Shown in pieces: positions 16,089 through 30,812 of a stretch of DNA of 32,000 nt (the first letter of the stretch is position 1; every line of letters begins with the position of its first letter). The DNA is from Raphidiopsis brookii D9 (GTDB lineage Bacteria; Cyanobacteriota; Cyanobacteriia; Cyanobacteriales; Nostocaceae), in assembly GCA_000175855.1 (NCBI GenBank), contig ACYB01000007.1, positions 1 to 32,000 of the forward strand, written 5' to 3'. The translations under genes and the position numbers were made by a program. A model generated the notes under the pieces. It saw nothing but the letters and a program-made list of their open reading frames with translations, was not told the DNA's origin and made no database searches.

Positions 16089-16104
16089 TTCAGTTCTTGA
16101 TTCA

Positions 16105-16124
16105 TCCCCACCCTCAGGTGGGGA
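16105..16124. terminator. Stem-loop between the convergent ndhD and HEAT-repeat genes
   Basis: TCCCCACC-ctca-GGTGGGGA is an 8-bp perfect GC-rich stem with a 4-nt loop, lying exactly in the 40-nt gap between the two stop codons. There is no clear U-tract on either strand. Confidence 0.5.
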
Positions 16125-16128
16125 CTAC

Positions 16129-16887
16129 CTAAAACCAACCTTCCTGTTCTAGGGTTTCAATGAGTTGTAACCCACGGGGATCTCCCACTCCTAATAGTGA
16201 AGCTTTGGCATCTTCTTTAACTCCTAAGTCCTGATCCTCAGCAAAAGCTTGAATTAAGGCGTCTATGGCTGTAGCGTAAATAATATTGGAAGGTAACTCT
16301 TTACACAGTTGACCAATTGCCCAGGCGGAGTTACTGCGCACTCCTGGAGTAGGATCTTGAACTAAGGCTTCTATTAAAGGTGGTATAGCACGAACTATAG
16401 CTTCATAACCTATATTTGCCATTTGCGCTAAGGCACTAGCTGCCCATAAACGCACTGCGGAAATATCTGTTTTTAAAGCATCCGTGAGGGGGTTTAAACA
16501 ACGATGATCATGGCAATTGCCTAGTGCCCAAACTACACCCTTTCTCACATAGCCATTTAAATCAAGATTTAGCTGATTAATTAGGGGGTCAACCGCTTCC
16601 ATAGCAGTATTACGACCTAGGGCGTATGCCGCACTAACTCGCACTAAAGGACAATAGTCAGATAATAATTTAACTAGATATGGTATGGATCGCTGATCGG
16701 AAATGTCACAAAAAGCACGAGCAGCCAACATTCTTTGTTTAGAATCGGATGCTTGCAAGAGTTCTAGCATGGCATCAGGATCGGGTTTCACTATTTCCGA
16801 TTCCGAGGTAATTGGTTCTATATTATCTAGTGGACTTTGGAGATCTACTTCATCATCGAGCACATTAGCATTCTCTTTATCATACAT
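16129..16887 (-). CDS. HEAT-repeat protein (PBS-lyase HEAT-like repeats)
   Basis: It contains repeated units of the form xxVRxxAAxALGxxxxxxAVxPLIxxL (VRVSAAYALGR, VRKGVVWALGN, VRLWAASALAQ, VRSNSAWAIGQ). Confidence 0.8.
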   Translation of the reverse strand: MYDKENANVLDDEVDLQSPLDNIEPITSESEIVKPDPDAMLELLQASDSKQRMLAARAFCDISDQRSIPYLVKLLSDYCPLVRVSAAYALGRNTAMEAVDPLINQLNLDLNGYVRKGVVWALGNCHDHRCLNPLTDALKTDISAVRLWAASALAQMANIGYEAIVRAIPPLIEALVQDPTPGVRSNSAWAIGQLCKELPSNIIYATAIDALIQAFAEDQDLGVKEDAKASLLGVGDPRGLQLIETLEQEGWF

Positions 16888-16911
16888 AAAATCTTTTCAG
16901 TTAGTTAAAAA

Positions 16912-17382
16912 TCAGCCCTCAAGAGATTTTATCATCCAGAGGGATTGGGTTTGATAACCTAGCTGTTGATAAAGCTCTAGAGCAGGGGTATTAGTGGTGA
17001 ACACCTGGAGTCCAATTTGTGGGTCTCCCTTCTGTTTAGCCCAGTTTTCCACGTGCTGGATGAGGGTTTTAGCAATACCCTGTCTACGGTGGGTAGGTTC
17101 CACATAAAGTAAAAATATGTGGGTATGACGACTACCTGTTACCTGATCTATGGCATTACCAGCCCACAAACAAGCTATTGGAGACGGTTGCTGATTTTTA
17201 TATACCCACCATAAAGGCGTATCATTGGAAAGATAGTTCTCCACAGTACGGGACAGGTGGGAAAAATCTTGGTAGGGAAAAATTTCTTGGTAAGTACGCT
17301 GGATAAACTTGACCAAGATGGCCTTGTCTAGGATAGAACCTCGACGAAGAGAATAGTCCGGCAAAGGAAATTCCAAAGTCAA
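16912..17382 (-). CDS. GNAT-family N-acetyltransferase
   Basis: The acetyl-CoA binding motif is present in LYVEPTHRRQGIAKTLIQHVENWAKQKG (Q/RxxGxG/A type). It uses a TTG start. Confidence 0.8.
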   Translation of the reverse strand: MTLEFPLPDYSLRRGSILDKAILVKFIQRTYQEIFPYQDFSHLSRTVENYLSNDTPLWWVYKNQQPSPIACLWAGNAIDQVTGSRHTHIFLLYVEPTHRRQGIAKTLIQHVENWAKQKGDPQIGLQVFTTNTPALELYQQLGYQTQSLWMIKSLEG

Positions 17383-17555
17383 ACGTTAAAATTGTAACTT
17401 AAGGTGTAAACTGATAAATGATGAATGATTGTGCCAACTGGAGCGGGTGCAGCCATGTCGGCGGGTAGAAAGATCCTCGCACTGACAGCAGCCAAGGCAA
17501 CTAAAAATACTAAAACAACCAGCAGGGGAGCGATGTACTGACGAAAAATAGACAT
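17379..17555 (-). CDS. Possible small membrane protein (58 aa), below the ORF-track size cut-off
   Basis: Hand translation gives MSIFRQYIAPLLVVLVFLVALAAVSARIFLPADMAAPAPVGTIIHHLSVYTLSYNFNV. It has one clear hydrophobic helix. Its TGA overlaps the TTG start of the GNAT gene (GTTTGAC). Confidence 0.35.
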   Translation of the reverse strand: MSIFRQYIAPLLVVLVFLVALAAVSARIFLPADMAAPAPVGTIIHHLSVYTLSYNFNV

Positions 17556-17578
17556 GATCTGTAATAATCTGGGTGGTT

Positions 17579-17977
17579 TTAATGTTCATCCCGATCTAAA
17601 TCATCAAGGACTTTTTCACAGTACCAATTTTCTGGCATTCCTGGATAGTTTTGTTGGGCCTGTTCAATTAATCTTTCTGCAGCAGCTACATCACCAGATA
17701 GTCTGGCAATGAGTCGGTTTTTCAGGTAACTTCCTGTTATTTCCTCATCTACTTGTTGGACAGAACCGAAATTTGCCGGTTGTAACTGTCGTCGCAGTTG
17801 CCAAAATATTACGTAGTAGAGAGCACCAAAAATTAACACCAGGCTGACTGTTCCTAGCAGGGTAAGCAGGCTAAATCCCAAATATCCTAAAACTAATTGG
17901 GAAACTACATAACCCAATAGTAACCCCGTAATTACTAATACAATTGTACCAAGAATAATTACTGCTTGTGGTTCCAT
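17579..17977 (-). CDS. Hypothetical two-TM membrane protein with a soluble C-terminal helical tail
   Basis: There are two hydrophobic helices in the first ~60 aa, then IARLSGDVAAAERLIEQAQQNYPGMPENWYCEKVLDDLDRD. It overlaps the ampG 3' end by 19 nt. Confidence 0.6.
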   Translation of the reverse strand: MEPQAVIILGTIVLVITGLLLGYVVSQLVLGYLGFSLLTLLGTVSLVLIFGALYYVIFWQLRRQLQPANFGSVQQVDEEITGSYLKNRLIARLSGDVAAAERLIEQAQQNYPGMPENWYCEKVLDDLDRDEH

Positions 17978-19470
17978 AAATCCTCCTCTTCAAGTCCCGG
18001 TCTGTTTACTGTTAACGATTTATTATTCCAAGGGGCGGCTATAGGTAACAGTATTAATCCAGGTAAAGCTGCTAATATAGATAACAAAAAGAAATTAGGC
18101 CAACCAGTAGCTTTTGCCCAGTCCCCTGCAGGTGCTGAAAGTATGTCTCGACTTAGTGCCATAAGACTAGAAAATAGAGCAAATTGCGTAGTGGTAAAGT
18201 TATGACTACATAAGCTCATTAGATAAGCTACTGTAGCTACGGTGACTAGTCCAGCGCTGGTGTTTTCGATCATAATAGCGATCGCCAGGAGAGAGTAGTC
18301 TTTGCCAACAATAGCTAGTGTATAGTAACCCAGATTGCTGAGTAGTTGGAGGATTCCAAATACCCAAAGGGCGCGGTTGATACCAATTTTAGACATTATT
18401 ATTCCACCGAGGATGACTCCTGTAGTAGTGGCTATTAGTCCAATAATGTAAACTGTTGCTAGTTCCTGGTTATTAAAGTTAATTTCTTTGGCAAATAGGT
18501 TGGCTGTGATTCCCACGAGGGAGTCTCCCAGCTTATAGAGTATAATGAAGATAAGGATAATTAGTGCTTTAGTAATACCATATTTTTCTAAGAAGATTTG
18601 TAGTGGTAAGATTACTGCTTCTTGTAGGGTGTGTGGTGTTAGGTCTTGGGACTGTTCATTTAGTTTGGGTTTGGGCAAGATAATTGAGGCCAGAACCCAA
18701 GTTATTAGTAGTCCACCTAATATCCAATAAAAGACTTGCACGGGGATTGCCTGGGAAATTACACCCCCCACTAAAGCAGCAGTTATGGTGATAATCAGCA
18801 GGAGAAATATAATATCCTTAGTTTTTAAAAACCTATTCTGGGGGGAATTGTTTTTCTCTTGGGTTTCTGGTGGAGCCAAAAGAGTGGTAATGAGTCCCAC
18901 GGTCATAAATCCCGCCATGAGTAGGTATACCATATTCCATGACAGAAATCCTGCTAGCCATGCTGCTAAAGAAAAGGCAATAAATAGGGCTACCCGATAA
19001 CCTAAAACCCATACAGATGCTCCGGTTTCCAATTCTAGAGGCTTTAAAATTTCGGTTCTATAGGCATCCCCAGCAATATCTTGGGTGGCACTAAAAAAGG
19101 CAATAATAAATGATATAATAGCTAGGGTGATTAGCACCTGGGTGTTTTGGGTTGGTTGCTGTAATGCCATGGTTACTATTGCTAGCACTAGGCCCAATTG
19201 AGTAAGGAACAACCAACCTCTCCTCCCCCCTAAAAAGGATGGAGAAAATCTATCAATTAGGGGAGACCAAATAAATTTTAAGGAGTATGGTAGACTAACC
19301 AGGCTAAATAATGTGATTTTGGCAACCTCTACATCAGCATCTTTCATCCATAGTTGCAGGGTGCGAGTGGTGAGAAACAGTGGTAACCCGGAAGCAAAAC
19401 CGAGTAACAGCAAACTTCCCATCTTGCGACTGTAAAATGCCTGTTTTAGTGCTTGGATTTCTTGAATCAT
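17959..19470 (-). CDS. ampG: AmpG-family muropeptide MFS permease
   Basis: This 503-aa polytopic protein has an AmpG-like N-terminus (LLLGFASGLPLFLTTRTLQLWM...FIWSPLIDRF...GRRRGWLFLTQL). Confidence 0.8.
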   Translation of the reverse strand: MIQEIQALKQAFYSRKMGSLLLLGFASGLPLFLTTRTLQLWMKDADVEVAKITLFSLVSLPYSLKFIWSPLIDRFSPSFLGGRRGWLFLTQLGLVLAIVTMALQQPTQNTQVLITLAIISFIIAFFSATQDIAGDAYRTEILKPLELETGASVWVLGYRVALFIAFSLAAWLAGFLSWNMVYLLMAGFMTVGLITTLLAPPETQEKNNSPQNRFLKTKDIIFLLLIITITAALVGGVISQAIPVQVFYWILGGLLITWVLASIILPKPKLNEQSQDLTPHTLQEAVILPLQIFLEKYGITKALIILIFIILYKLGDSLVGITANLFAKEINFNNQELATVYIIGLIATTTGVILGGIIMSKIGINRALWVFGILQLLSNLGYYTLAIVGKDYSLLAIAIMIENTSAGLVTVATVAYLMSLCSHNFTTTQFALFSSLMALSRDILSAPAGDWAKATGWPNFFLLSILAALPGLILLPIAAPWNNKSLTVNRPGLEEEDLWNHKQ

Positions 19471-19503
19471 GTCTGGTGTTATGGTTGATCAACTAGATTA
19501 TTA

Positions 19504-19899
19504 CTAGCTTTTCACATTCTTGCTAGTCAGATCTATGAAATCTTCAATACTCTTAATATTTGGATCCCCTGATAAATATCCTATACCTCTATGTAGGTGC
19601 AAGCGAAATTGGGTAATTAGGGTTTCTGAGTCTGTTCCTAAACCGTCGTTATTACACCGTTGTTTTAGTGCTAATAGGAAAATATCCGCCATTTCTCCCC
19701 CAAATACTTTCCAGGTCAGTTCTACATTACTATCTTGGGGTATGGGTATGGGTGATGGGGGACTGTTTTCAGCTAGAGAACGACAAAACGCCCACCGACA
19801 TAGTATATTCCATTGTTCTATACGGGTGACACGTTTTAATTTCAACAGTTGATCCTTGGCCGTCTGGGATAGTTTAATTCTTTCTATGGGTGATTCCAT
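19504..19899 (-). CDS. dndE: DNA sulfur modification protein DndE
   Basis: Its size (131 aa) and N-terminus (IKLSQTAKDQLLKLKRVTRIEQWNILCRWAFCRSLAE) match the DndE family. It lies directly downstream of dndD. Confidence 0.8.
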   Translation of the reverse strand: MESPIERIKLSQTAKDQLLKLKRVTRIEQWNILCRWAFCRSLAENSPPSPIPIPQDSNVELTWKVFGGEMADIFLLALKQRCNNDGLGTDSETLITQFRLHLHRGIGYLSGDPNIKSIEDFIDLTSKNVKS

Positions 19900-19936
19900 T
19901 TTTATACCTAATATGATATTAACTCTCTTAGCCTAA

Positions 19937-21971
19937 TTACCAAAAATATCCTTCTTTGATACTTGTTTCTCTTTTTCCTGAATCATACTCTAAAACATAT
20001 TCTCGTGCGATCGCCTGATGTTCTCTGAGTATTGCTATTTCTTTCCTGGCTATTTCTGTATCTGTGGATAGTAAAATTACCTGATGGCTTGCTGTGGGGA
20101 AATATCTTTCCAATAGGTTATTTCTATGGGATGAGTCTAATCTTCCTAGGGGGGTGTCAATTGCCACGGGTAGTTGTTTTCCGGACACTTTTGCTAAACC
20201 CCATAAAAAGGCGATCGCCAAAAGTTGTTTTTCTCCTGCGGATAGTCTATGTTTAGGGACTAGTTTACCGTGGAGATCATACAATGAGAGTTGGAAACTT
20301 TTAGAATCAATTCCCACTCTATAGACCAAATCTGATTTATGTAGTAAATACAAAAAACAGTTTTTTACTTCCTCTTCTAATTTATTTAATTTCCTTAAAG
20401 TTAGTTTTTCTTTAAACAACTTTAAATTTTCTTGTACTCGATGGACTGAATCAATCAAATGTTGATTACTTCGATATTTAAGATTTTTGTTGGTATAACT
20501 ATTCAACTCTTTTTTAGTTTTATCAATGGTGGTAGTTAAATTGATGAACTGGCGATTGAGTATTTCCAGATTGGTATTTGCTCGACTCCATTCTTTTTCA
20601 GCCAGTTCTCGGATTTTTTGTAGTTTGATGTATGCTTCTGGTGGAGCAGCAGCTTGAATTTGCCTATCTAGACTGACAATTAATTCTAGACAATTGCGCA
20701 GTTCTAGCAGGAGGTTTTTGGCATTATTTTGGACTGTTGGCAAGCTATAGACCAGACGGTCTAAAGAAGTCAAAGTTTCCTCGTCTGCATGCAAGAAACA
20801 CTCTTGATAATTATTGGCTTTCACTGGTTCACTATCATATAATTTAGTAGATAAATCTACATATAAACTATCAATATCTTGAACCAGGAAATTTTCAATA
20901 CTGGTGATTGTTTCCAGTTCTAGATTCAATTGATTAAGGAAGGAAAGCAATCTTTTATCTCTGGTGGTTAAAATATCTCTAGCCACTTGATTTTGTAACT
21001 GTATTTGTTTAAGTCTTAACTCTTTTTGACCCTGGAGCTGAACTTGAGATAATAAATTACTAATTAACTGTAAAGGTAAAACACCGTCAGCCAATTGGCA
21101 CAAAGTTTTCCGGAGATTTTCCACCTTGCCAACCTGAGTTTCCCTCTCCCTATCCAGTTGACTGCGTTCCCCAGCAATTTTGCCACCTTCTGATATATAC
21201 TTATTTAGGGCTTCCTCATATTTAAACTTTAAATTTTTTACCTTGCTCCTCTAGGTCTTGCAGCTGAGCTTTCTGAGAATTTTTTTGCTCCATTTGTTCA
21301 TGTAAACGGTTTTCCAATTCTTCCAGCTTAGCCAAATCCCGATCATCAGCATTTTCCTTTTTTTTGCGATTGACTAATATTTCCAAATCTAAGGACAATT
21401 TATCTACCAATTCCAATCCCAAGAGTCCATTAATTGCATCCACCACTATGGGAGTAGGAACTTCCTGTTCTGCTAGTTCCTTGACCTGCTCACCATCAAA
21501 TAAAAATAAATTAGAAATACCCAAGGGCAATATATTTTCTATGTATTCGTCCCAGATATTGGCTAAAGACTGGGGCCAGGTTTCGTCCTCCCCCAAAATT
21601 CCTAGGGAATCCTTACCATCCTTGGGGTTTTTTTCCCAAGTTCTCACCACCCGATACCTCACGGGTTTATCATCCTCAATGTGTTCAAAAACCAACTCGA
21701 TTCTGGTTTTATTAATCGGGTCAGCTTTGTTATTCACACACTGGGTCAGAAAGTCACCATAACTTAAATTTCCCCTGGTGGAACATTGGGCCCTTGCTCC
21801 ATATAATGCCAAGCGAATAGCATCCATCAGGGTGGTTTTTCCTCCTCCATTCATCCCCCCCAAAAGAATAATTGGACGAATGTTATTCCGATCGATTCTG
21901 GTATCCAAATTAATGACTTGCTTACCAGCATAAGGACCAAAGTTTTGCAGTACAAGTTCTAAAAAAATCAT
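19937..21971 (-). pseudogene. dndD: DNA sulfur modification protein DndD (SMC-like ATPase), interrupted by a +1 frameshift
   Basis: The N-terminal ORF 21222..21971 carries Walker A (GGMNGGGKTT). The C-terminal ORF 19937..21124 carries LSAGEKQLLAIAFLWGL and Walker B/D-loop (LPVAIDTPLGRLD). The C-terminal frame stays open upstream to about 21250 and reads VKNLKFKYEEALNKYISEGGKIAGERSQLDRERETQVGK-VENLRK. Removing one base from the T6 run at 21234-21239 (A6 on the coding strand) joins both parts into one ~675-aa DndD. Confidence 0.85.
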
Positions 21972-22029
21972 AATTCCAGCAGTTCAAAAATCAAGATAGC
22001 AAGGATCACTAATAATCTAAGAATATTCT

Positions 22030-23673
22030 CTATTCCTCTTGCTTATATTCATGCTTCCTATATTTCATGCTCGCAAAACTCAGTGGTTGCTCTAGGGGTT
22101 TTTTATCTTCAGTCTTATATTCAGTGTTATTTTCCTCCCCCACCCGTGGGATATCTAATTGTTTAAATGCCTGACGAATTGTCGCTACATTACCTTCACT
22201 AGCTGCTAGACGTAGATCTCTTTTAAAATGGGCATAATTAATAGCCTCCTGTTGGGAACGGGAACTAGTTTCAAAGCACTTTTCTAAAGTTTCAAAAATA
22301 CCTACTCGGCGGGTTTTTTTCTTGAATTGTCTTTCTGTGTCTAGTAACTTTGCCATCAACTCTAATTCCATAGAGTTACCTGCACAGATTTGTTCTAATA
22401 CCTCCCACTCATCCCCACCTAATAAACTATAATCTGCGCCAGGTCGAGAATCTTTAAATTTTTCTCCTGTCACTTGTTCATATATTTGGGGTAAACTGTC
22501 ATCAAATTCGTGTTTTTCTTCCAGCCAAATACGGCGAATTTCACTCAGTTCTTCCATGGAGATTAGGGTGATATTGGCCATGTTTTCCGGTGCATTCTCT
22601 CTCATTTCTTTTTGTGCTGTTAATAATTTCCTTAACCAGTATTCTCGCCAAGATTTTGTATATGGCCCAGGTATGGGTTCAACCGACATTTCCCCATTTT
22701 TATTCCGTTCAAATAATTGAACTTCCCCCCAAATGCGACGAAAATCTCTTTTTTCTCGGTCATTTTCAATATCTAATTCCTTCCTAAACTCAACTATTGG
22801 TTGCATCCACTCTTTTTCTTGATCATTTTGAATCATTGCACTCAGGGATACATCACGATCAACTAGGGTACAAACCCAACAACCAAAACGAGAACTACCA
22901 CAACTTGGAGTAGATGTATCAACAACCAGCGGACATTCATTATCCTCCGTTGATTGCCTATACATCACAAATAGATCCTTGTTACTGTGTCCCCAAGGAT
23001 TATCCCACTGCATCAAATATAGCCAAACTTCATCAGTCCGCCAATCTTCTATGGGACTGTAAACCAGGGAATTGGGTAAATTGCCATTGGGACTCAGGCG
23101 ATCGCGCAGTCTTTTAGCCTCCATTTTTTTCATGGTAGCAGCGCGATTTTTACTTTCGGTTTTGCGAATACCCAGAACCAGGATTGTTTCTCCACTTTCC
23201 CTAACCATATTACGAATAAAACGGTTAGATGGACTTATTTTTAGACGTTCAGTACACCAGCGGAATTTTTGACGGGGAGCAGGATATCCCTTACCAATTA
23301 GACCCACCCAATAGGTCTCCTTTGTTTCTGGTTGTAAAAGGTGAGCTTGCATGGGAACTTGCTGTTCTTGGGCAGCTTTTTTGATATTTTCATGAGAAGT
23401 GCGTACCCAAGCGGAAACGTATGGATTTTCTACGCCTGTGTCTGTCGTAATGACGTGAATAGTCTTAGCTCTTTTTTCTGGTGGTAAATTAGAAATAGCG
23501 TTCCAAATCAGTTGTAAGATTGCCGTACTGTCTTTTCCTCCAGAATAACCAACCACCCAGGGTATGTCGTCCAAACAGTATAGTTGCTGAATTTCTTTTG
23601 TAAGAACTTGAATATACTCCACCAGCTCAGCTACAGTTCGATTCGGCGGGGTTTTACTTTCTGATGTCACCAT
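22030..23673 (-). CDS. dndC: DNA phosphorothioation protein DndC (PAPS-reductase-like ATP pyrophosphatase)
   Basis: It has a PP-loop (GYSGGKDSTA) and a Cys cluster (PSCGSSRFGCWVC). The 547-aa size and its position upstream of dndD-dndE also fit. Confidence 0.9.
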   Translation of the reverse strand: MVTSESKTPPNRTVAELVEYIQVLTKEIQQLYCLDDIPWVVGYSGGKDSTAILQLIWNAISNLPPEKRAKTIHVITTDTGVENPYVSAWVRTSHENIKKAAQEQQVPMQAHLLQPETKETYWVGLIGKGYPAPRQKFRWCTERLKISPSNRFIRNMVRESGETILVLGIRKTESKNRAATMKKMEAKRLRDRLSPNGNLPNSLVYSPIEDWRTDEVWLYLMQWDNPWGHSNKDLFVMYRQSTEDNECPLVVDTSTPSCGSSRFGCWVCTLVDRDVSLSAMIQNDQEKEWMQPIVEFRKELDIENDREKRDFRRIWGEVQLFERNKNGEMSVEPIPGPYTKSWREYWLRKLLTAQKEMRENAPENMANITLISMEELSEIRRIWLEEKHEFDDSLPQIYEQVTGEKFKDSRPGADYSLLGGDEWEVLEQICAGNSMELELMAKLLDTERQFKKKTRRVGIFETLEKCFETSSRSQQEAINYAHFKRDLRLAASEGNVATIRQAFKQLDIPRVGEENNTEYKTEDKKPLEQPLSFASMKYRKHEYKQEE

Positions 23674-23678
23674 GGTTG

Positions 23679-23698
23679 TAATTGGGGATAATTGGGGA
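23679..23698. repeat. Tandem decamer (TAATTGGGGA x2; TCCCCAATTA x2 on the dndC strand) 5 nt upstream of the dndC start codon
   Basis: There are two perfect adjacent copies at 23679-23688 and 23689-23698, inside the 187-nt divergent dndC/DGQHR intergenic region. Confidence 0.6.
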
Positions 23699-23860
23699 TG
23701 ATTTTATCAATATCAGTAGGGATTCAAGTTGGGAATCTAAATCAGACTTTACAAGGCTAATTTCAAGAAAGTATTGACAATTATAGTTTCATACCAGTAT
23801 GTAGTATTTTGGCAAAATACACAACCTAATCTCCTATTAAGTTTTTAGAAAATTAACTTC

Positions 23861-25413
23861 ATGGCAAAAATACCTCAAGATAACCGTAACATTTTTCCTC
23901 AGTACCCAGTAGGTCAACCTCCCCAACTCCCATCTCAAATTATGGTTCAACAAACGAAAATGGGTAATGTTACCGCTTATCTAGGCTCAGTTACTTTAGA
24001 ATGGTTTGCAAAAAAGGTTAAGTTCGCCTCTACTTTACCAATATTGCAAAATAAATATAATCCGGTTACGGATAACATTGAAATTGACGCGGATAGTATT
24101 GAGCAGATTCAAGAGCGTTCTCTGGATTGGTCACGTCAAAGTTCATTGTTACAATATCTAGCTATACATAGAAATCATAAGTTTCCACCAGTACTAGTTG
24201 TAATCAGTCAACCCTGGGTGAATGATGAAAAATCGGACTTATGGGATGGGGAGGGTCGTGCCAAAAAAGCAACTACTGATTTTATCCCTTCAGATGCAAA
24301 TAGTCATATTGGTTTATTGAATGTAGCGGAAGAAGATACAAGTATTTATGTTTTAGATGGTCAACATAGATTAATGGGAGTTCAGGGTTTATTAGAACTG
24401 TTAGAAAATGGAAGAATAGCAAGATATAACCGAGATAAAATCCCCACTGATAGTTATATAGATCTGTCAGAGTTGGTAGACCAATATAGGATTGATGTTG
24501 ACTATCTCAAACAATTACCCCAGGAAAAATTGGCATTGAATTTATTTGCGCAGTCAATAGTGGAGAAACCTACTCAGAAGCCAAACAGAGAGTCAGATCA
24601 ATTTTTGTGCATGTGAATTTAATGGCTACCCCCTTAACTAAAGGTCAACTGATCCAATTAAATGAAGATAATGGTTTTGCAATTGTAGCCAGAAAAATAG
24701 CAGTAAGTCATCCCCTGTTAGCGCACAGAGAGAATCGGAAACCTCGGATTAACTGGAACAGCGCCACGGTAGCAGCTAACTCCACCGTATTGACCACATT
24801 ACAAGCTTTACAAGACATGTCAACTAAATATTTGGGATACAAATTTCCCCATTGGCAACCCCAAATTAAGGGATTGATTCCCATGCGTCCAGACCCTGAC
24901 CAGTTAGGGGAAGGAATGAGGGAATTTCAACAGCTATTTGACCATTTAGCTACCCTACCTAGTTATAAGATTTTAGATCATGAGGATACACCTGTTTTAC
25001 GGCGATTCAGTTTTGAAAAAGGCGGTGGTGAGGGCAATATTTTATTTCGTCCTGTGGCACAAGTTGCCTTAGCAGAAGCTTTAGGAATTTTAGTTTTTAA
25101 AAATGGACTCTTATTAGAAAACATTTTTAAAAAGTTGCAAAAATTTGATCTTCAGGGTGGTTTTAGTCAAATGGAATTTCCTAATTCTGTATGGTATGGA
25201 GTTTTATATGATCCGAATAAAAAGCGAGTTCAAGTGTCTAAAAAAGAATTGGCAGTAAAATTATTAATTTATCTATTGGGGGGAATCAAAGACCGGATGG
25301 AAATTGCACAACTACGCAAAGCACTAGCAAGTGCTAGAACCAGAGAAGATCGTGCCATGGACTTTGATGGGAACTGGGTTAGTGATCAAGAGGTAGGACT
25401 TCCATCCATATAG
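23861..25413 (+). pseudogene. DGQHR-domain (DndB-like, ParB/Srx fold) protein of about 519 aa, interrupted by a -1 frameshift
   Basis: ORF 23861..24616 contains YVLDGQHRLMGV. The frame of ORF 24607..25413 is open upstream from 24502 and there reads KIGIEFICAVNSGETYSEAKQRVRSIFVHVN (the FxxxN second motif of DGQHR proteins). Adding one A to the A5 run at 24525-24529 gives a continuous ...LKQLPQEKIGIEFICAV... protein. Confidence 0.8.
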
Positions 25414-25448
25414 CATCTATATAGGAGTTAGATTACAAGCGGGGGGGA

Positions 25449-25922
25449 CTAGGATAAAAATCTAGAGAGATCAAATTCTCCATCTTCCCCATCAATTGTT
25501 TGATGTTCACGCTGTAAAAACAATAGAATTCTCTCCGTATAATTCACGGATCCTCTGATTTGAGTCTCTAAAATCTCTAACCCCCCATTAGCATATTCTT
25601 CAAAAATTTGATTACGTTGTTTTTCTTCTTCGTCATTATTAGGTGATAAAAGTTGAATATTCTCTGTTTCTACAATTGCCAGTAATTTGATCAACACATC
25701 ATATCCTGAGGTTGCAAAAACCTCTAATCTGATGGGAGAGGGATCCCTTTTCGAGATCTCTTCAAATGGAATACGCTTCTGATATTTAATACCTAAAGCA
25801 GCAGCAAAAGCAATCACATCAGCAAAGGTTTGAAAGGGACCTTGGGATCCATCATTAGCAACTAAAGCCTTAACAAAATCTGCTTTATCTCCAGCAATTC
25901 TAATTCTACTAGTTTCAGCCAT
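25449..25922 (-). CDS. 157-aa protein of unknown function; from memory it resembles the 'dnd system-associated protein 4' family (unverified)
   Basis: This clean ORF is the last gene of the convergent trio (FQTFADVIAFAAALGIKY...IFEEYANGGLEIL). The family assignment comes from recollection only, not from a search. Confidence 0.45.
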   Translation of the reverse strand: MAETSRIRIAGDKADFVKALVANDGSQGPFQTFADVIAFAAALGIKYQKRIPFEEISKRDPSPIRLEVFATSGYDVLIKLLAIVETENIQLLSPNNDEEEKQRNQIFEEYANGGLEILETQIRGSVNYTERILLFLQREHQTIDGEDGEFDLSRFLS

Positions 25923-25994
25923 AACTAGAAAACAGTTAACTCCTTTCTACTGCTACAATTTCACTGTACTCGAAACCATTAGGACTTTGACGGG

Positions 25995-28004
25995 TTAGGT
26001 AATATTTTCCCTACCTATTTGCAAAAAGTCCTCTTCACAGTTGGGTTTAGAAGAGTAATAGGTCAGGACATATTCCTTACCAATTCGCTCCATAATTTCG
26101 GACTCAACTTCCTCTCTCCATTGGGTCTTGGTCACCAGCACTACTAACTGATTAGCCAACTTGGGAATGGTGTGTGCAATGTGACGACGAGAGTTAGCAT
26201 CTAAACTGCCAAAGGGTGAATCCATTACTATGGGGAAGGTACTACTATCGGGAACCATCATGATTTTTTTCTTTTCACTCCATTCCCTTACTTTATCAAT
26301 AATACTGGCGATAAATGATAAACTGAGAATTTGATTTTCCCCGGTGGATGCTGCAACAGGAGCTTCTATTCCAGTTGTATTCTCTACTAAGGTCAGTTCA
26401 TATTTTTCGCTAATTTTGGGAATATATGGTGTAACGGAAATTTCTGAGAATATTTCTTGCACTCGTTTCTCTAATTGCAATCTAAATTGTTTTTCTTGTC
26501 TATTTTTCACTTCAGTTAATATATCAATAGCATCTTGGGTAGCAATAATTCGACGCTGGGCCAAAATCTGTCGTCCTTCATTTTGTTTTTGCTTGGCAAT
26601 TTGTTTGACTACAAGATCAATTTCTGTATTTAAGTGAGAAATTTCTTTTTGGTTTGATCCTTGCTCCCGATTTAAATCGTCAATTCTTGCTTCTATTTCA
26701 TCCAATCTCTTTTGTAACCCGCTAATGTCTTCATTTGGGTCTTTCCTCAAAATCTCCTCAATGCTATCTAAGTTCATCTCTATATCAGAAAGTGATGTCT
26801 TCAGCTGATAAATTCTTTCTTGTTCTCGATTGATCATCTCCAAAAATAATTGAGCTTGTTTTTCCAGATCATCTATTTGCGCTCCCATTCTAATTGCAGT
26901 TTCTTCCACGGAAGAAGATCCAGTTTTTCTCAAAAGTGATTTAACGTGAAAATGTCCATTCCCTCCTTCTTTTAGTTCTGCGCCACAAATGCACCTACCA
27001 CTTTTCATCAATTCGCTGACAAATTCTCTGGAAATACCAGATTTTAATTGCCCGCGCTCTTTGAAAGCCACAATAATTTGTCTGAATTTAACTGTTGTCT
27101 CATTTAATAATAATGTGTATGCCTGTTTGGAAATAGCTCTTTTCAAACTCTCCTTGGTTTTTTTTAATTCATCATAACTGTTGCGTTTTTGACTTTCTAG
27201 ACTTTCCCTTCTTTCTTGTAAATCCCTAACCGAACTCAATTCTACCAATCTGGCACTGATATCCTTTTTAAAAACCTGTTGATTTTCTAAATCTTGAGCT
27301 ATTTCCGTTTGTCTTTGGGAAATTTTACTAATTTCTCTTTCTAGTGTACTTTCTTGTTTTAATAATTGTTTAGTTTCCGCATCCCCAATAGCTGCCAATT
27401 CACTGTCTAAAGTTTTTTTAGCCTCCTTTAAATGTTTGGTTGCCAGATCAATCACCTTAACACCTAAAAATATTTCCGTAGCTTCAGCAATTTCAGCTTT
27501 TTTATCAGAGCGGACAATTTCTTCTATTCTTTCTCCATCAAAAAAGAAGTATTGATGTAAACTTACGGGCAATATATTATTGATTATTTCCTCTGGTTGC
27601 TCAATAGGAAAATACCACTTACCATCATCCCCCACAATTTGAATTGTTAATTTAGTTTTGGTAGCATCAATAGTAGTGGGATTTTTATAAACCCGACAGT
27701 TACGTTTTGCCCGGTAGCGAACCCCTTCATGTTCCCAACCTACTTCTACCCAACATTCTACAGCTTGATCCTCTCCTACTTCTGAAATCGCACGTTTATT
27801 AACTAGCTGCTCTGTCACCGCAAAAGCAGCTGTAAATTTTTCATATAGCACCCAGGTGAATCCATTTAATAAACTGGTTTTTCCCGCACCATTATTACCA
27901 TGAATTATGGTGGTATTCTGAAACTCTCCACCTGCTATGGCAATTTCCGGTGTTTGTCCATAAAAGGAACGAAAATTACAAAATTTAATCGAAGTTAATT
28001 TCAT
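25995..28004 (-). CDS. Second DndD-like / SMC-Rad50-type ATPase (669 aa), intact
   Basis: It has Walker A (HGNNGAGKTSLLNGF), a ~400-aa coiled-coil-like E/K/Q/L-rich middle, a signature-like STGENQILSLSFIASII and Walker B/D-loop (FPIVMDSPFGSLD). The C-terminal block aligns by eye with the dndD C-terminus in this same window (DTPLGRLDSSHR vs DSPFGSLDANSR). Confidence 0.85.
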   Translation of the reverse strand: MKLTSIKFCNFRSFYGQTPEIAIAGGEFQNTTIIHGNNGAGKTSLLNGFTWVLYEKFTAAFAVTEQLVNKRAISEVGEDQAVECWVEVGWEHEGVRYRAKRNCRVYKNPTTIDATKTKLTIQIVGDDGKWYFPIEQPEEIINNILPVSLHQYFFFDGERIEEIVRSDKKAEIAEATEIFLGVKVIDLATKHLKEAKKTLDSELAAIGDAETKQLLKQESTLEREISKISQRQTEIAQDLENQQVFKKDISARLVELSSVRDLQERRESLESQKRNSYDELKKTKESLKRAISKQAYTLLLNETTVKFRQIIVAFKERGQLKSGISREFVSELMKSGRCICGAELKEGGNGHFHVKSLLRKTGSSSVEETAIRMGAQIDDLEKQAQLFLEMINREQERIYQLKTSLSDIEMNLDSIEEILRKDPNEDISGLQKRLDEIEARIDDLNREQGSNQKEISHLNTEIDLVVKQIAKQKQNEGRQILAQRRIIATQDAIDILTEVKNRQEKQFRLQLEKRVQEIFSEISVTPYIPKISEKYELTLVENTTGIEAPVAASTGENQILSLSFIASIIDKVREWSEKKKIMMVPDSSTFPIVMDSPFGSLDANSRRHIAHTIPKLANQLVVLVTKTQWREEVESEIMERIGKEYVLTYYSSKPNCEEDFLQIGRENIT

Positions 28005-28015
28005 TGCTACACTAC

Positions 28016-28204
28016 TTATTTTACCGCTTCTTTAATTATTGCTAAAATGTCCTCATTAACTGCACCCTTGCTTTTTCTGGCCAGTCGCGATTTTTCCAAT
28101 CTACACACTTTTTCTATTATCTGTTTTACTTCAGGTGATGCAGCAGTAATTGGTGCTTGCACATCCTGGATTTTTAACTCTTGAGCTTCTAGTTCTCTGT
28201 TCAT
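28016..28204 (-). CDS. Small (62-aa) protein, first gene of the ATPase trio, function unknown
   Basis: ATG at 28204 is preceded by GGGGGGA about 8 nt upstream; the track's longer start at 28237 is less likely. It ends 11 nt before the ATPase start. It appears helical and charged (EVKQIIEKVCRLEKSRLARKSKG). Confidence 0.5.
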   Translation of the reverse strand: MNRELEAQELKIQDVQAPITAASPEVKQIIEKVCRLEKSRLARKSKGAVNEDILAIIKEAVK

Positions 28205-28293
28205 GACTATTTCCCCCCAGGTTTTGCCACCTATCATACCACAATATGTGTATGGAATGATTGGTCATCTAGAATTAAAATAAAGGGAAAGGG

Positions 28294-28508
28294 ATGAGGG
28301 GGATGAGGACCATGATCCGGGAAGTTGAAATCCGAGGCTTTAAATCGCTCTCTTGTTTGTAGTTGAACGTAACAGCAATGGTCAAACAAATATTCGTCGC
28401 CTTGAGTTAACCTCGGAACTAATTCAACTCAACCAAAAGTATCCTTTATCTCGCCTTTGGCTTATGGGAAATCTTGGAGGAGTGCCAAATATGGTCACCA
28501 AAAGATGA
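28294..28508 (+). pseudogene. Deletion relic of an AAA/ABC-type ATPase gene (N-terminal ~20 codons and C-terminal ~48 codons only)
   Basis: 28294-28362 reads MRGMRTMIREVEIRGFKSLSCL*, a typical SMC/AAA_15/21 N-terminal strand just before where Walker A should be. 28362-28508, in another frame, reads VERNSNGQTNIRRLELTSELIQLNQKYPLSRLWLMGNLGGVPNMVTKR*, which resembles the C-terminus of the same kind of protein. The several hundred codons in between are absent. Confidence 0.4.
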
Positions 28509-28601
28509 CATTCTCCCCGATTTCTGCACGAAATCTCCCCTAAATATTTCCCCTAACCTTGTAATATTAATCTCACTAACATACCATAGGAATCAAAAGC
28601 A

Positions 28602-29612
28602 ATGCGCAGAAGACACTTACTGTATCTTGGTACTGGTGCTACATTAGCACTCGCGACCCATGGTTGTACTCAGGGGGATTCCAAATCGACCCCCAATACC
28701 AATACTAGTGAAAATCCTGGTAAAATTACTATTGGTTTTTGGCCCGTAGCTTCTGGGTTACCATTATTTGTAGCAGATAAAAAAGGCTACTTTAAAGAAG
28801 CAGGTCTTAATGTGGAAGTAGCTCAATTTGCCTCCCCCAATCAAGTCGCTGAAGCTTTAATTGCTGGTAGATTACAGGGTACGGGTAATGGAGTGGCCAG
28901 TGGTGTGCTGGGCCTGTCTGAAATTACTTCACCGGGTCTGTTTAAAATTATTGCAGCTAATCCCAGCAATGTGGATTATAAACTAGACCAAATTGTAGTT
29001 GGTAAAAATAGCTCTATTAAATCTGTAACCGATTTAAAAAATAAAAAATTTGCCACAGGACCGGGAGCGCAAAATCTAGCCATTGCTCAAGCCATTTTAG
29101 CCGCAGCAGGGGTTGAAAAACCAGAAATCCAACAGTTAGAGATCCGCCAACATGTGGCAGCTATTGAATCAGGACAAATAGATGCTGCTTATACTCTAGA
29201 ACCTACTGGTACGGTTGGCAATCTTAAAGGTATCACCAGAGTTTTAGAAAATGGTGTGGTGTCTAAATATGTTTTAGGAGATCCTAAAGCACCCTGGTTT
29301 GGTGGTGCGGCGGTTTTAAGTACTCAATTCTTACAAAAATACCCCAAATCCACTGAAGCTTATATTAAAGCTTACCGTCGAGCTATTGCTGATATTAAGA
29401 ATCAACCGGATGGGGTGCGACAATATTTAGTCGGATATACGGCCATCTCTGGAGACTTAGTACAAAAAGTGCCCCTAGTTGGTTACACCATGTATGATGA
29501 ATTTACCGCTGAGGACATTAACTACTTCCAAAAATTCTTCGATTTTATGACTGACAAAAAAGTCTTTTCTAAAAAGGTAGATGTGGGTAGTCTGTTATAT
29601 AAAAATCCGTAG
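28602..29612 (+). CDS. ABC transporter substrate-binding lipoprotein (NMT1/NitT-TauT type)
   Basis: It has a Tat-like/lipoprotein signal (MRRRHLLYLGTGATLALATHGC). The periplasmic-binding fold sequence resembles aliphatic sulfonate/nitrate/bicarbonate binders, and it is followed by the cognate ATPase and permease. Confidence 0.8.
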   Translation: MRRRHLLYLGTGATLALATHGCTQGDSKSTPNTNTSENPGKITIGFWPVASGLPLFVADKKGYFKEAGLNVEVAQFASPNQVAEALIAGRLQGTGNGVASGVLGLSEITSPGLFKIIAANPSNVDYKLDQIVVGKNSSIKSVTDLKNKKFATGPGAQNLAIAQAILAAAGVEKPEIQQLEIRQHVAAIESGQIDAAYTLEPTGTVGNLKGITRVLENGVVSKYVLGDPKAPWFGGAAVLSTQFLQKYPKSTEAYIKAYRRAIADIKNQPDGVRQYLVGYTAISGDLVQKVPLVGYTMYDEFTAEDINYFQKFFDFMTDKKVFSKKVDVGSLLYKNP

Positions 29613-29645
29613 ATTGATCCGCTGAAATTCAAGATAATTTAGCAA

Positions 29646-30812
29646 TAAGTAAGTTGGACTGAAAAAACCAAACTATGTGAAGATAAATAAATAGGATATA
29701 CCGAGGTAATAAGATATGGGAGCTCGTTTAAGGGTATTTCTGACAAGTGAGGAAGATAAAACGCTGTTTAATCTAAGAAGTGCGGATGTACCACAGAAAG
29801 TCAAAGACCGAGCAGAAGTGATTAGGTTAAATGCACATGGATGGTACGTGGAAAAAATAGCAGCTCATTTTAACTGGACTTCACAAACAGTTAGAGAGGT
29901 TTTACATAAATGGGAAAAGTTTGGTCTAGAAGGACTGTGGGAAAAATCTGGTCGAGGAGGAAAACCGAAATACAGGGATTCAGACATAGAATTTCTGGAG
30001 GAATGCCTGAAAAAAGAACCACGTACATACAACAGTGTTCAATTAGCTCAAAAGTTAGAGACGGAACGCTCGGTTAAACTAAGTCCCGATAGGTTAAGAC
30101 GGGTACTAAAAAAAAGGGGATCATTTGGAAAAGAACCAGAAAAAGCCACAAAGGAAAACAAGACCCAGAAAGTAAACAAATCAAGCAAGCAGACCTAGAT
30201 ATGTTGGAATTATCCGCTGCTGGGGGAGAAATAGACTTGAAATATTTAGATGAATCAGGTTTTTGTATGTGGAGTGAACCGAGTTATACATATTACCAAA
30301 GAGGGGAGCAAAAAAACTTAGAGCAAACAAAACGCCGTGGTCGAAGACTAAGTATTATTGGTCTTCTTCAACCCTTAATTAGTTTTGTTTACGGTTTAGT
30401 AATTGGGGGGGTGAATCGCAAATCTTATATTGAAATGATGGAGCATGAAGCCGAAGAAGCAGAAAAACTGGGACGTATAAGAGTAATAGTACAGGATAAT
30501 GGTCCAATACATCAATGCAAAGAAGTGAGAAAGTTATGGTCAAAATGGGAGAGTCAGAATTTATACATTTTCTTTCTGCCCAAATATTGCTCTGAGATGA
30601 ATCCAATTGAATTAGAGTGGAAACACCTTAAAAAAGATGAGATATCGGGAAAAATGTTTGAAGATGAGTTAGAGCTTGCTTATGCCGTAATGGATGGAGT
30701 AAACGCTAGGGGAAAAAGAAATAAGCATAGTACAGAACGTATTAAATTTAACAACTCTTGCCTTTCTTAACCTTTCGTTACATAGCTATAAATTTCCCAG
30801 CCGACTTACTTA
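29646..30812 (+). mobile_element. IS630-family insertion sequence (~1.16 kb) flanked by a TA target duplication
   Basis: The imperfect terminal inverted repeats are AGTAAGTTGGACTG... (29648->) and ...CAGCCGACTTACT (->30810). TA is present at 29646-47 and 30811-12. The element carries a two-frame HTH + DDE transposase. Confidence 0.85.
29716..30770 (+). CDS. IS630-family transposase, two frames joined by a probable -1 programmed frameshift
   Basis: ORF1 (29716..30198) is the HTH part. ORF2's frame is open upstream and reads KKGIIWKRTRKSHKGKQDPESKQIKQADLDMLEL, continuing into YLDESGF...VQDNGPIH...YCSEMNPIELEWKHLK (DDE). The frames meet at the A8 run at 30108-30115 (CTA AAA AAA AGG). Confidence 0.85.

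What the first reader, a model, noticed from the sequence alone, without database searches (positions are those of the whole stretch)
25449..28237. Convergent three-gene module built around a second, intact DndD-like SMC ATPase: candidate PT-linked effector system
Three genes are tightly spaced (gaps of 11 and 72 nt) and converge on the DGQHR gene: a 62-aa protein, a 669-aa ATPase and a 157-aa protein. The ATPase is a clear paralogue of the island's own dndD, sharing the same Walker A context and the DxPxGxLDxxxR block, so the island encodes two DndD-family motors. With the DGQHR protein this makes a four-component set (DGQHR + small + SMC-like ATPase + small) in place of dndFGH. From memory it resembles the archaeal PbeABCD PT-dependent defence module and TIGRFAM 'dnd system-associated' families, but the gene order and orientation here are different and I cannot verify homology. 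No nuclease motif is recognisable in any of the four proteins, so the effector mechanism is open. This is the strongest candidate for a poorly described or undescribed defence module in the window.
Basis: partly seen in the sequence, partly recalled or inferred. Interest (0 to 1): 0.8.

Follow-up and report, generated by a model that had tools for sequence, protein, structure and literature searches.

The report
Helicase-less pbeBCD phosphorothioate defence remnant
The three genes are pbeB, pbeC and pbeD, the core of the already described Pbe phosphorothioate-dependent antiviral system; here they lack the pbeA helicase-nuclease and sit in an island where three genes carry frameshifts, so this is a reduced copy of a known system and not a new one.

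Summary
The three minus-strand ORFs exist as described and converge on a DGQHR gene beside dndCDE. They are orthologues of pbeB (62 aa), pbeC (CxC zinc-hook ABC ATPase) and pbeD (TIGR04062 'dnd_assoc_4', DndE-like fold), in the canonical B-C-D order of the Pbe system (Xiong 2019; Aravind lab 2024).

Two parts of the observation are wrong. First, the ATPase is not intact: a 1-nt deletion at about 26008 replaces its conserved last 24 residues (669 aa against 689 aa), and the 72-nt gap is an artefact of this (true gap 13 nt). Second, the DGQHR gene is itself frameshifted at about 24529, and dndD at 21244.

The window is Raphidiopsis brookii D9. The sister strain CENA303 is 99.8% identical and has all seven genes intact.

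No pbeA is present. Other cyanobacteria carry a helicase-only PbeA, without the PLD/HKD nuclease domain, upstream of pbeB. Cylindrospermopsis, Sphaerospermopsis and Dolichospermum lack it at the locus, yet pbeBCD there is under purifying selection (dN/dS 0.03-0.25).

The DGQHR protein always pairs divergently with dndC and is absent from a solitary pbeBCD locus. It therefore belongs to the modification module and is not a fourth effector subunit.

Verdict: a known system in a reduced form, probably decaying in this strain, although the indels could be 454 sequencing errors.

The parts
28016..28204 (-). pbeB: 62-aa small protein of the Pbe / CxC-ABC system (the longest ORF runs to 28237, 73 aa)
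   Evidence: ORF. It is annotated as 62 aa in sister strains. It is 54-100% identical across 10 cyanobacterial loci and aligns with the 55-59-aa pbeB of canonical loci L012-L014. dN/dS is 0.09-0.13. No library family hit.
25936..28004 (-). pbeC: CxC zinc-hook ABC ATPase (DndD sister clade). It carries a -1 frameshift at about 26008, so the ORF stops at 25995 (669 aa) instead of 25936 (689 aa)
   Evidence: PADLOC PbeC PDLC02753 scores 1095.8 bits over the full length. TIGR03185 DndD scores below its cutoff. Motifs: Walker A at 27873-27899, CIC hook at 26985-26993, signature STGENQ at 26331-26348, Walker B/D-loop at 26199-26228. Frameshift shown. The lost tail is conserved family-wide.
25449..25922 (-). 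pbeD: 157-aa 'DNA phosphorothioation-associated protein 4', with a DndE-like fold
   Evidence: TIGR04062 scores 186.4 bits against a cutoff of 74.25. Precomputed PF27807. The AF2 model has pLDDT 84. The best PDB fold matches are DndE entries 7x4e, 4lrv and 5wtu with TM 0.58-0.62, while other hits reach at most 0.31. The hhalign alignment to DndE is collinear but not significant.
23861..25413 (+). Long DGQHR / DndB-like (ParB superfamily) gene, frameshifted at about 24529. It belongs to the dnd modification module and is not part of pbe
   Evidence: The two halves match TIGR03187. The intact 517-aa form matches TIGR03187 over residues 29-411 but does not match DndB TIGR03233. The A6-to-A5 deletion is shown. 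It is next to the dnd genes in all 12 dnd-linked loci, divergent from dndC wherever dndC was called, and absent from L004.
22030..23673 (-). dndC (PT sulfurtransferase), intact
   Evidence: TIGR03183 scores 698.5 bits.
19937..21971 (-). dndD, split by a +1 insertion at 21244 into 249-aa and 395-aa ORFs
   Evidence: The halves match TIGR03185 at 295.7 and 332.9 bits. The indel is shown against CENA303. It is unique to this strain.
19504..19899 (-). dndE, intact
   Evidence: TIGR03184 scores 132.8 bits and PF08870 scores 152.5 bits.

Best explanation
The module is pbeB-pbeC-pbeD. This is the conserved core of the phosphorothioate (PT)-dependent Pbe defence system, which the Aravind lab calls the 'CxC ABC ATPase-DndE' system. 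It lies next to a dndCDE plus divergent DGQHR PT-modification module in Raphidiopsis brookii D9.

Inferred mechanism, from the families and from the H. jeotgali experiments:
- PbeC dimerises through its CxC zinc hook. Together with the DndE-like DNA-binding (nick-binding) protein PbeD it scans DNA using ATP.
- PT marks written by DndCDE identify self DNA. Unmarked incoming DNA is blocked from replicating.
- PbeB is an obligatory small partner or regulator.

The canonical motor-nuclease PbeA (PLD/HKD nuclease plus SF2 helicase) is absent from this locus. Other cyanobacteria keep a helicase-only PbeA.

In this strain, one-base indels disrupt dndD (needed to write PT), the DGQHR gene and the conserved C-terminus of pbeC. 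The island is therefore most likely inactive and decaying here. The same seven genes are intact in sister Cylindrospermopsis strains.
For: Identity:
- PADLOC PbeC scores 1095.8 bits.
- The CxC hook insertion is present in all PbeC sequences and absent from DndD.
- PbeD matches TIGR04062 above its cutoff, and its best PDB folds are DndE.
- PbeB, PbeC and PbeD all align with the products of canonical pbeABCD loci L012-L014, in the same gene order.
- Protein sizes are 62, 689 and 157 aa, against 66 and 152 aa for H. jeotgali PbeB and PbeD (PMC6459918).

PT linkage: 12 of 13 loci carry dnd genes next to pbeBCD.

PbeA absence:
- The cyanobacterial 473-511-aa helicase matches PADLOC PbeA only at profile positions of about 241-681. 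The 493-aa copy from L003 matches TIGR04095 at 672 bits and is 51% identical to PbeA residues 250-698, with no PLD domain.
- No helicase is found in the window or in L001, L004, L005, L006, L016 or L019.

Decay:
- The window differs from CENA303 by exactly 3 indels, all in island genes and all unique to D9.
- D9-derived substitutions are 4 nonsynonymous and 3 synonymous in the island, against 0 nonsynonymous in the flanking genes.

Function in the family:
- dndCDEA-pbeABCD reduced SNJ1 plaque formation about 10^4-fold.
- This defence was PT-dependent and left SNJ1 DNA uncleaved.
- pbeB, pbeC and pbeD were each absolutely required.
- The pbeA deletion strain kept weak resistance (PMC6459918).
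Against: - The D9 genome was assembled from 454/GS20 reads at 27x with few Sanger reads (PMC2821919). Two of the three indels lie in A/T runs of 4-6 bases, so they could be sequencing errors and the island could be intact.
- The clustering of indels in the island is only weakly significant: about 0.17 on the aligned 14.9 kb, and about 0.02 if the intact housekeeping ORFs of the whole window are counted.
- No experiment exists for any cyanobacterial Pbe module or for any PbeA-less module.
- The PbeD-DndE relationship rests on a Foldseek match of E = 0.18. Sequence tests did not support it.
- pbeA could be encoded elsewhere in the genome; I could not search the whole genome.
Confidence: 0.85

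Rival explanations
1. A working PbeA-independent defence system. The pbeBCD triad, together with PT from dndCDE, is self-sufficient in Cylindrospermopsis and Raphidiopsis and blocks replication of unmarked DNA without any helicase or nuclease. On this view the D9 frameshifts are 454 artefacts.
For: - pbeB, pbeC and pbeD are under purifying selection within helicase-less lineages: L005 vs L006 gives dN/dS 0.09, 0.07 and 0.03; L001 vs L004 gives 0.12, 0.14 and 0.25.
- The seven genes are intact in the three other Cylindrospermopsis loci examined (L005 from strain CENA303, the metagenome contig L006, and L016), and all listed Cylindrospermopsis PbeC variants are full length at 689 aa.
- H. jeotgali with pbeA deleted kept some resistance, and Pbe does not degrade DNA (PMC6459918).
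- 454 homopolymer errors are plausible.
Against: - The resistance left after deleting pbeA was less than ten-fold.
- D9 also carries lineage-specific nonsynonymous changes in dndC and pbeC that cannot be homopolymer errors.
- One indel (T to TT at 21244) is not in a long run.
- pbeA may simply be encoded elsewhere.
Confidence: 0.25
2. One reading: DGQHR, PbeB, PbeC and PbeD form one four-component effector set, with the ParB-superfamily DGQHR protein and its C-terminal extension replacing PbeA or DndFGH as the effector.
For: - In Cylindrospermopsis the pbeD stop and the DGQHR stop are only 35 nt apart.
- The long DGQHR (517-538 aa) is not a canonical DndB; it does not reach the TIGR03233 cutoff.
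- It occurs in every dnd-linked cyanobacterial pbeBCD locus.
- ParB/DGQHR proteins have been proposed to act as NTPases or nucleases (PMC10853773).
Against: - It is next to the dnd genes in all 12 dnd-linked loci and divergent from dndC wherever dndC was called. The intergenic gap is 150-235 bp in the five loci where I measured it.
- It is separated from pbeD by DndB-like and HNH genes in L001, L003, L008, L010, L011, L019 and L020.
- It is absent from the solitary pbeBCD locus L004.
- Canonical loci have an ordinary dndB in the equivalent place.
Confidence: 0.08
3. The PbeC-PbeD pair is not a restriction module. It is a duplicated ABC-ATPase/DndE targeting module that cooperates with DndC, for example by giving PT modification a second site specificity or by regulating it.
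For: - PbeC and PbeD are paralogues or structural analogues of DndD and DndE, which target DndC.
- The Aravind lab notes tandem DndDE and CxC-DndE systems in 22% of taxa that have a Dnd modification system and argues for functional cooperation (PMC10853773).
- This locus has no nuclease.
Against: - Deleting any H. jeotgali pbe gene abolished defence.
- pbeBCD occurs without dnd genes in L004, and 320 of 553 PbeAC pairs are solitary.
Confidence: 0.07

Closest known systems
PbeABCD of Haloterrigena jeotgali A29 (Xiong et al. 2019, PMC6459918), also called the CxC ABC ATPase-DndE-small protein system (Aravind lab, PMC10853773)
   Same: - The gene order is pbeB-pbeC-pbeD.
- PbeC has the CxC hook and ABC motifs.
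- PbeD is about 150 aa and PbeB about 60 aa.
- The module is adjacent to dndCDE.
- PADLOC PbeC matches over the full length, and all three products align with those of canonical loci L012-L014.
   Different: - There is no PbeA (PLD/HKD nuclease plus SF2 helicase) at the locus.
- The ~200-aa fifth gene that follows pbeD in L012-L014 is absent.
- pbeC is frameshifted in this strain.
- The host is a cyanobacterium and no function has been tested.
DndD-DndE pair of the DndABCDE phosphorothioation system
   Same: - PbeC shares the domain plan with DndD: Walker A, Q-loop, coiled coil, signature motif and Walker B/D-loop. It is about 25% identical to the island's own DndD.
- The PbeD model superposes on DndE crystal structures with TM about 0.6.
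   Different: - PbeC is below the TIGR03185 cutoff, has a 16-residue CxC insertion at the coiled-coil apex and has a conserved C-terminal tail.
- PbeD has no sequence match to Pfam DndE and is about 30 aa longer.
- The pair is not needed for PT writing in the described systems.
Cyanobacterial Pbe variant with helicase-only PbeA (TIGR04095 'DNA phosphorothioation system restriction enzyme'), as in Nostoc NIES-4103, Calothrix, Funiculus and Okeanomitos
   Same: - pbeB, pbeC and pbeD are orthologous at 54-70% identity.
- The same long DGQHR lies divergent from dndC.
   Different: - Those loci keep the 473-511-aa helicase upstream of pbeB.
- Most of them carry an Uma2 nuclease gene between pbeC and pbeD, and DndB-like or HNH genes after pbeD.
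- The window has none of these.
DndFGH restriction module
   Same: It is an alternative PT-dependent restriction partner of dnd modification genes.
   Different: There is no homology, and no dndF, dndG or dndH is present in the window.

Membership tests
Pbe system (PbeABCD / CxC ABC ATPase-anchored system) | [quoted passage not shown] | tested here: met
   PADLOC PDLC02753 scores 1095.8 bits over residues 1-649. The CIC motif is at residues 338-340, inside an insertion that DndD lacks, and is conserved in L012-L014. DndD TIGR03185 scores below its cutoff.
Pbe system (PbeABCD / CxC ABC ATPase-anchored system) | PbeD: a protein of about 150 aa encoded immediately downstream of PbeC, the cognate DndE homologue | tested here: met
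   TIGR04062 scores 186.4 bits against a cutoff of 74.25. In the intact form the gene starts 13 nt downstream of pbeC. The same family follows pbeC in canonical loci. The DndE-like fold is supported only weakly (Foldseek E 0.18, TM 0.59-0.62), and the sequence tests were negative.
Pbe system (PbeABCD / CxC ABC ATPase-anchored system) | PbeB: a small protein of about 55-66 aa encoded immediately upstream of PbeC | tested here: met
   The 62-aa ORF lies 11 nt upstream of pbeC. It aligns with the pbeB of L012-L014, sharing the motif EP(I)..AP.EV..II..V..LEK.RL...DI..I.KE.
Pbe system (PbeABCD / CxC ABC ATPase-anchored system) | PbeA: a PLD/HKD endonuclease fused to an SF2 helicase, encoded upstream of PbeB | tested here: not met
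   Upstream of pbeB is an ABC-transporter gene on the opposite strand. No tblastn match to PbeA or to the cyanobacterial helicase is found anywhere in the window. All other window ORFs are housekeeping genes. The rest of the genome could not be searched.
Pbe system (PbeABCD / CxC ABC ATPase-anchored system) | PT-dependent protection against viruses without degradation of their DNA | not testable with these tools
   Shown only for H. jeotgali genes expressed in Natrinema (PMC6459918).
DndD (TIGR03185 equivalog) | Score above the curated cutoff, and no CxC hook | tested here: not met
   148.6 bits against a cutoff of 245.85. The CxC hook is present.
DndE (PF08870 / TIGR03184), for the 157-aa protein | Sequence match to the DndE models | tested here: not met
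   None of 46 diverse family members hits PF08870 even at E <= 10. hhalign gives probability 5%. Only the fold is similar.
DndB (TIGR03233), for the DGQHR protein | Equivalog score at or above 328 bits, and a gene co-directional with and immediately upstream of dndC | tested here: not met
   The intact 517-aa orthologue hits only the DGQHR domain model TIGR03187. The gene is divergent from dndC. The canonical DndB in L012 scores 501 bits.

The most novel reading that the evidence does not exclude
A PbeA-less pbeBCD triad, with no helicase and no nuclease at the locus, is kept under purifying selection in bloom-forming Nostocales (Cylindrospermopsis, Sphaerospermopsis, Dolichospermum). It may be a self-sufficient, non-degradative, PT-sensing blocker of foreign-DNA replication, or it may recruit a non-canonical effector such as the long DGQHR/ParB-like protein. 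If so, the PbeC-PbeD-PbeB core, and not PbeA, would be the actual immune effector of Pbe systems.
Probability: 0.2. Interest if true: 0.6.

Novelty: new member of a known kind. Interest (0 to 1): 0.3.

Why it matters
The finding shows that the supposedly undescribed module is the known Pbe core. This saves follow-up effort and corrects two errors in the description: the ATPase is not intact and the DGQHR gene is not intact.

The useful residue is comparative. Cyanobacterial Pbe loci have lost the PLD/HKD nuclease domain of PbeA, and three planktonic genera have lost the helicase from the locus altogether, yet they keep pbeBCD under selection. That offers a natural experiment on an open question: Xiong et al. 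reported no DNA cleavage, while the Aravind lab predicts cleavage. The question is whether Pbe immunity needs DNA cleavage or translocation at all.

For R. brookii D9 itself, the island is probably one more example of gene decay in a reduced genome.

Tried and rejected
- **Sequence-level PbeD-DndE homology.** Profile searches against PDB sequences found nothing. hhalign against a shallow DndE alignment gave probability 0.3-5%. A Pfam scan of 46 family members gave no DndE hit. Only the fold search pointed to DndE.
- **First AF2 model of PbeD.** With a 22-sequence alignment it was poor (pLDDT 55.7). It was redone with 63 diverse sequences (pLDDT 84).
- **PADLOC for PbeB, PbeD and DGQHR.** No models matched even at E <= 10.
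- **Promoter and terminator scan of 25300-28700.** Counts were no better than in shuffled sequence.
- **L015 (GCA_002321935.1) as a second Raphidiopsis-like comparator.** Rejected because many of its housekeeping genes are split, so the assembly is too noisy.
- **The lexA-adjacent helicase as a housekeeping gene.** Rejected. It stays linked to pbeB in Funiculus, where lexA is not adjacent, and it scores above the TIGR04095 cutoff.
Full report
**What is in the sequence.**
- Three co-oriented minus-strand ORFs lie at 25449-25922 (157 aa), 25995-28004 (669 aa) and 28016-28237. The last is a 73-aa ORF, or 62 aa from the ATG at 28204.
- They converge on a plus-strand DGQHR gene.
- Beyond the DGQHR gene lie dndC (22030-23673), a split dndD (21222-21971 plus 19937-21124) and dndE (19504-19899).
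- The rest of the window is housekeeping: Hsp70/GrpE, MetH, an NDH subunit, an MFS transporter and an ABC transporter. There is also an IS630-like insertion.
- There is no dndFGH, and none of the island's proteins hits a classical nuclease family.

**Identity of the three genes.**

*The 669-aa protein (PbeC).*
- It matches PADLOC's PbeC model PDLC02753 over its full length at 1095.8 bits.
- It matches NCBIfam DndD at only 148.6 bits, below the 245.85 cutoff.
- Aligned with the DndD of the same genomes, it shares several motifs:
  - Walker A: GNNGAGKTS in PbeC, GMNGGGKTT in DndD.
  - The FDGE Q-loop region.
  - The signature motif: STGENQ in PbeC, SAGEKQ in DndD.
- It also has a 16-residue insertion at the coiled-coil apex, absent from DndD, that contains C-I-C (residues 338-340).
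- This is the 'CxC zinc hook' that defines the sister clade of DndD described by the Aravind lab, who equate it with PbeC (PMC10853773).

*The 157-aa protein (PbeD).*
- It is TIGR04062 'DNA phosphorothioation-associated protein 4' at 186.4 bits against a cutoff of 74.25.
- The family has 573 representatives at the 50% identity level.
- A confident AlphaFold model (pLDDT 84, pTM 0.80) finds DndE crystal structures as its best PDB matches: 7x4e, 4lrv and 5wtu, with target-normalised TM 0.58-0.62. Every non-DndE hit has TM at or below 0.31.
- The Foldseek E-value is only 0.18 and the sequence-level tests were negative. I therefore treat 'DndE-like fold' as supported but not proven. It agrees with the published statement that PbeD is the DndE cognate.

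*The small protein (PbeB).*
- It has no library hit.
- It is conserved (54-100% identity) across cyanobacterial loci.
- It aligns with the 55-59-aa gene that precedes pbeC in canonical loci.

**Comparison with canonical Pbe loci.**
- Three distant PbeD homologues (40-44% identical) sit in loci L012-L014.
- Those loci read pbeA (657-706 aa), pbeB (55-59), pbeC (693-694), pbeD (152-154) and a conserved gene of about 200 aa.
- dndBCDE follows on L012 and L013. L014 is cut off inside a neighbouring DndD-like gene.
- In L012, the one PbeA I scanned, the helicase part (residues 250-695) matches TIGR04095 and the N-terminus matches a PLD anti-phage model.
- These sizes and this order match H. jeotgali PbeABCD, where PbeB is 66 aa and PbeD is 152 aa (PMC6459918).
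- The window's three genes are therefore pbeB-pbeC-pbeD in canonical order.

**What is missing.**
- No pbeA precedes pbeB. The neighbour is an ABC-transporter gene on the other strand.
- tblastn with PbeA sequences finds nothing in the window.
- In six other cyanobacterial loci a 473-511-aa SF2 helicase lies directly upstream of pbeB. These are an unclassified Nostocales metagenome genome, Cylindrospermum, Nostoc, Funiculus, Calothrix and Okeanomitos (L002, L003, L008, L010, L011, L020).
- The two helicases I scanned (L003, L010) match PADLOC PbeA models at about 550 bits, but only over profile positions of about 241-681.
- The L003 copy exceeds the TIGR04095 cutoff (672 bits against 600) and is 51% identical to canonical PbeA residues 250-698. 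These helicases lack the N-terminal PLD/HKD domain.
- Cylindrospermopsis/Raphidiopsis (window, L005, L006, L016), Sphaerospermopsis (L001, L004) and Dolichospermum (L019) have no helicase at the locus.
- Even so, pbeB, pbeC and pbeD in those lineages are under purifying selection. Within Cylindrospermopsis dN/dS is 0.09, 0.07 and 0.03. Within Sphaerospermopsis it is 0.12, 0.14 and 0.25.

**The DGQHR gene.**
- The intact orthologue (517-538 aa) matches the DGQHR domain model over residues 29-411, followed by about 105 unassigned residues. It does not reach the DndB equivalog cutoff.
- It lies next to the dnd genes in all 12 dnd-linked loci, and divergent from dndC wherever dndC was called. No dndC was called in L019.
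- In most loci it is separated from pbeD by a second DndB-like gene and/or an HNH gene.
- It is absent from L004, where pbeBCD stands alone.
- Canonical loci have an ordinary dndB in the corresponding role.
- I therefore assign it to the modification module and not to a four-subunit effector.

**State of the genes in this strain.**
- Exact-sequence look-up identifies the window as Raphidiopsis brookii D9, through accessions EFA74123, EFA74125, EFA74128 and EFA74129.
- Window 15936-29648 is 99.8% identical to C. raciborskii CENA303. The differences are 25 substitutions and exactly three one-base indels:
  - an extra T at 21244, in dndD;
  - A5 instead of A6 at about 24529, in the DGQHR gene;
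  - T4 instead of T5 at about 26008, in pbeC.
- All three indels are absent from L005, L006 and L016.
- The pbeC indel replaces the last 24 residues. The correct tail, KYYLTRQSPNGFEYSEIVAVERS, is readable at 25936-26007 and is conserved even in L012-L014.
- So the 'intact' ATPase is truncated, and the 72-nt gap is really 13 nt.
- D9 was sequenced on 454/GS20 at 27x (PMC2821919), so homopolymer errors cannot be excluded.
- Three observations argue against a pure artefact:
  - The indels fall only in island genes.
  - One of them is not in a long run.
  - D9-specific substitutions in the island are 4 nonsynonymous to 3 synonymous, while the flanking genes have none nonsynonymous.
- I judge real decay more likely than artefact, at roughly 60:40.

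**Mechanism.**

*Shown elsewhere (PMC6459918):*
- dndCDEA-pbeABCD reduced plaque formation by the virus SNJ1 about 10^4-fold.
- This depends on PT modification.
- It does not cleave viral DNA.
- It needs pbeB, pbeC and pbeD absolutely, and pbeA only partly.

*Inferred here:*
- A zinc-hook PbeC dimer with the DndE-like PbeD scans DNA using ATP.
- It distinguishes PT-marked self DNA from unmarked DNA.
- PbeB acts as partner or regulator.

In D9, broken dndD alone should abolish PT, and with it any PT-dependent defence.

**Novelty.** The families, the system and its tandem association with dnd genes are all published and are annotated by NCBI and PADLOC. The window adds a reduced and probably decaying member. 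The only element a specialist might find interesting is the clade-level pattern of helicase-only or helicase-less Pbe loci that are still under selection. In several genera an Uma2 nuclease gene is embedded between pbeC and pbeD.

Noticed in passing
window 29649-30810: An IS630-like element (ORFs 29716-30198 and 30201-30770 in different frames) is inserted between the substrate-binding gene and the ATPase gene of an ABC transporter. It is absent from the 99.8%-identical CENA303 sequence.
   Followed up: partly
L001 12205-12804; L002 8878-9477; L003 15230-15781; L010 7159-7815; L011 9336-9878; L019 12116-12676; L020 12159-12797: In seven other cyanobacterial loci an Uma2 (PF05685, PD-(D/E)xK) gene sits inside the operon between pbeC and pbeD. 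In the same clade PbeA has lost its PLD/HKD nuclease domain, so this may be a nuclease swap. The window has no such gene.
   Followed up: partly
L012 10465-11067; L013 9552-10163; L014 10472-11068: A conserved fifth gene of about 200 aa (33-44% pairwise identity, no Pfam, NCBIfam or PADLOC family) directly follows pbeD in canonical pbeABCD loci. It is absent from all the cyanobacterial loci.
   Followed up: partly
L016 8036-9926: Another C. raciborskii strain carries a 394-aa AAA_15/AAA_21 ATPase plus a 237-aa gene inserted between the ABC-transporter gene and pbeB. This suggests the site is a hotspot for defence genes.
   Followed up: no
L002 10030-10953; L001 14689-15534; L010 11695-12498; L020 20589-21038: HNH endonuclease genes are scattered through related islands. 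One of them (in L002) resembles the PT-DNA-binding restriction endonuclease family NF045808 but scores 126 bits, below the 180 cutoff. None is present in the window.
   Followed up: no
L002 6905-8809; L003 12406-14343; L010 7917-9830; L011 7359-9248: An SLH + DUF3370 gene (outer-membrane-type protein) is inserted between pbeC and pbeD in four loci. This is odd cargo for a defence operon and I have no explanation for it.
   Followed up: no
L015 (GCA_002321935.1, contig NPIK01000002.1): This 3.48-Mb assembly carries the identical 73-aa pbeB ORF but has many split housekeeping genes around it and no callable pbeC. It is probably an assembly rich in indel errors, so its apparent pseudogenes should not be trusted.
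   Followed up: partly
window 24607-25413 (C-terminal part of the DGQHR protein, residues about 412-517 of the intact form): The ~105-residue C-terminal extension beyond the DGQHR domain has no family assignment.
   Followed up: no
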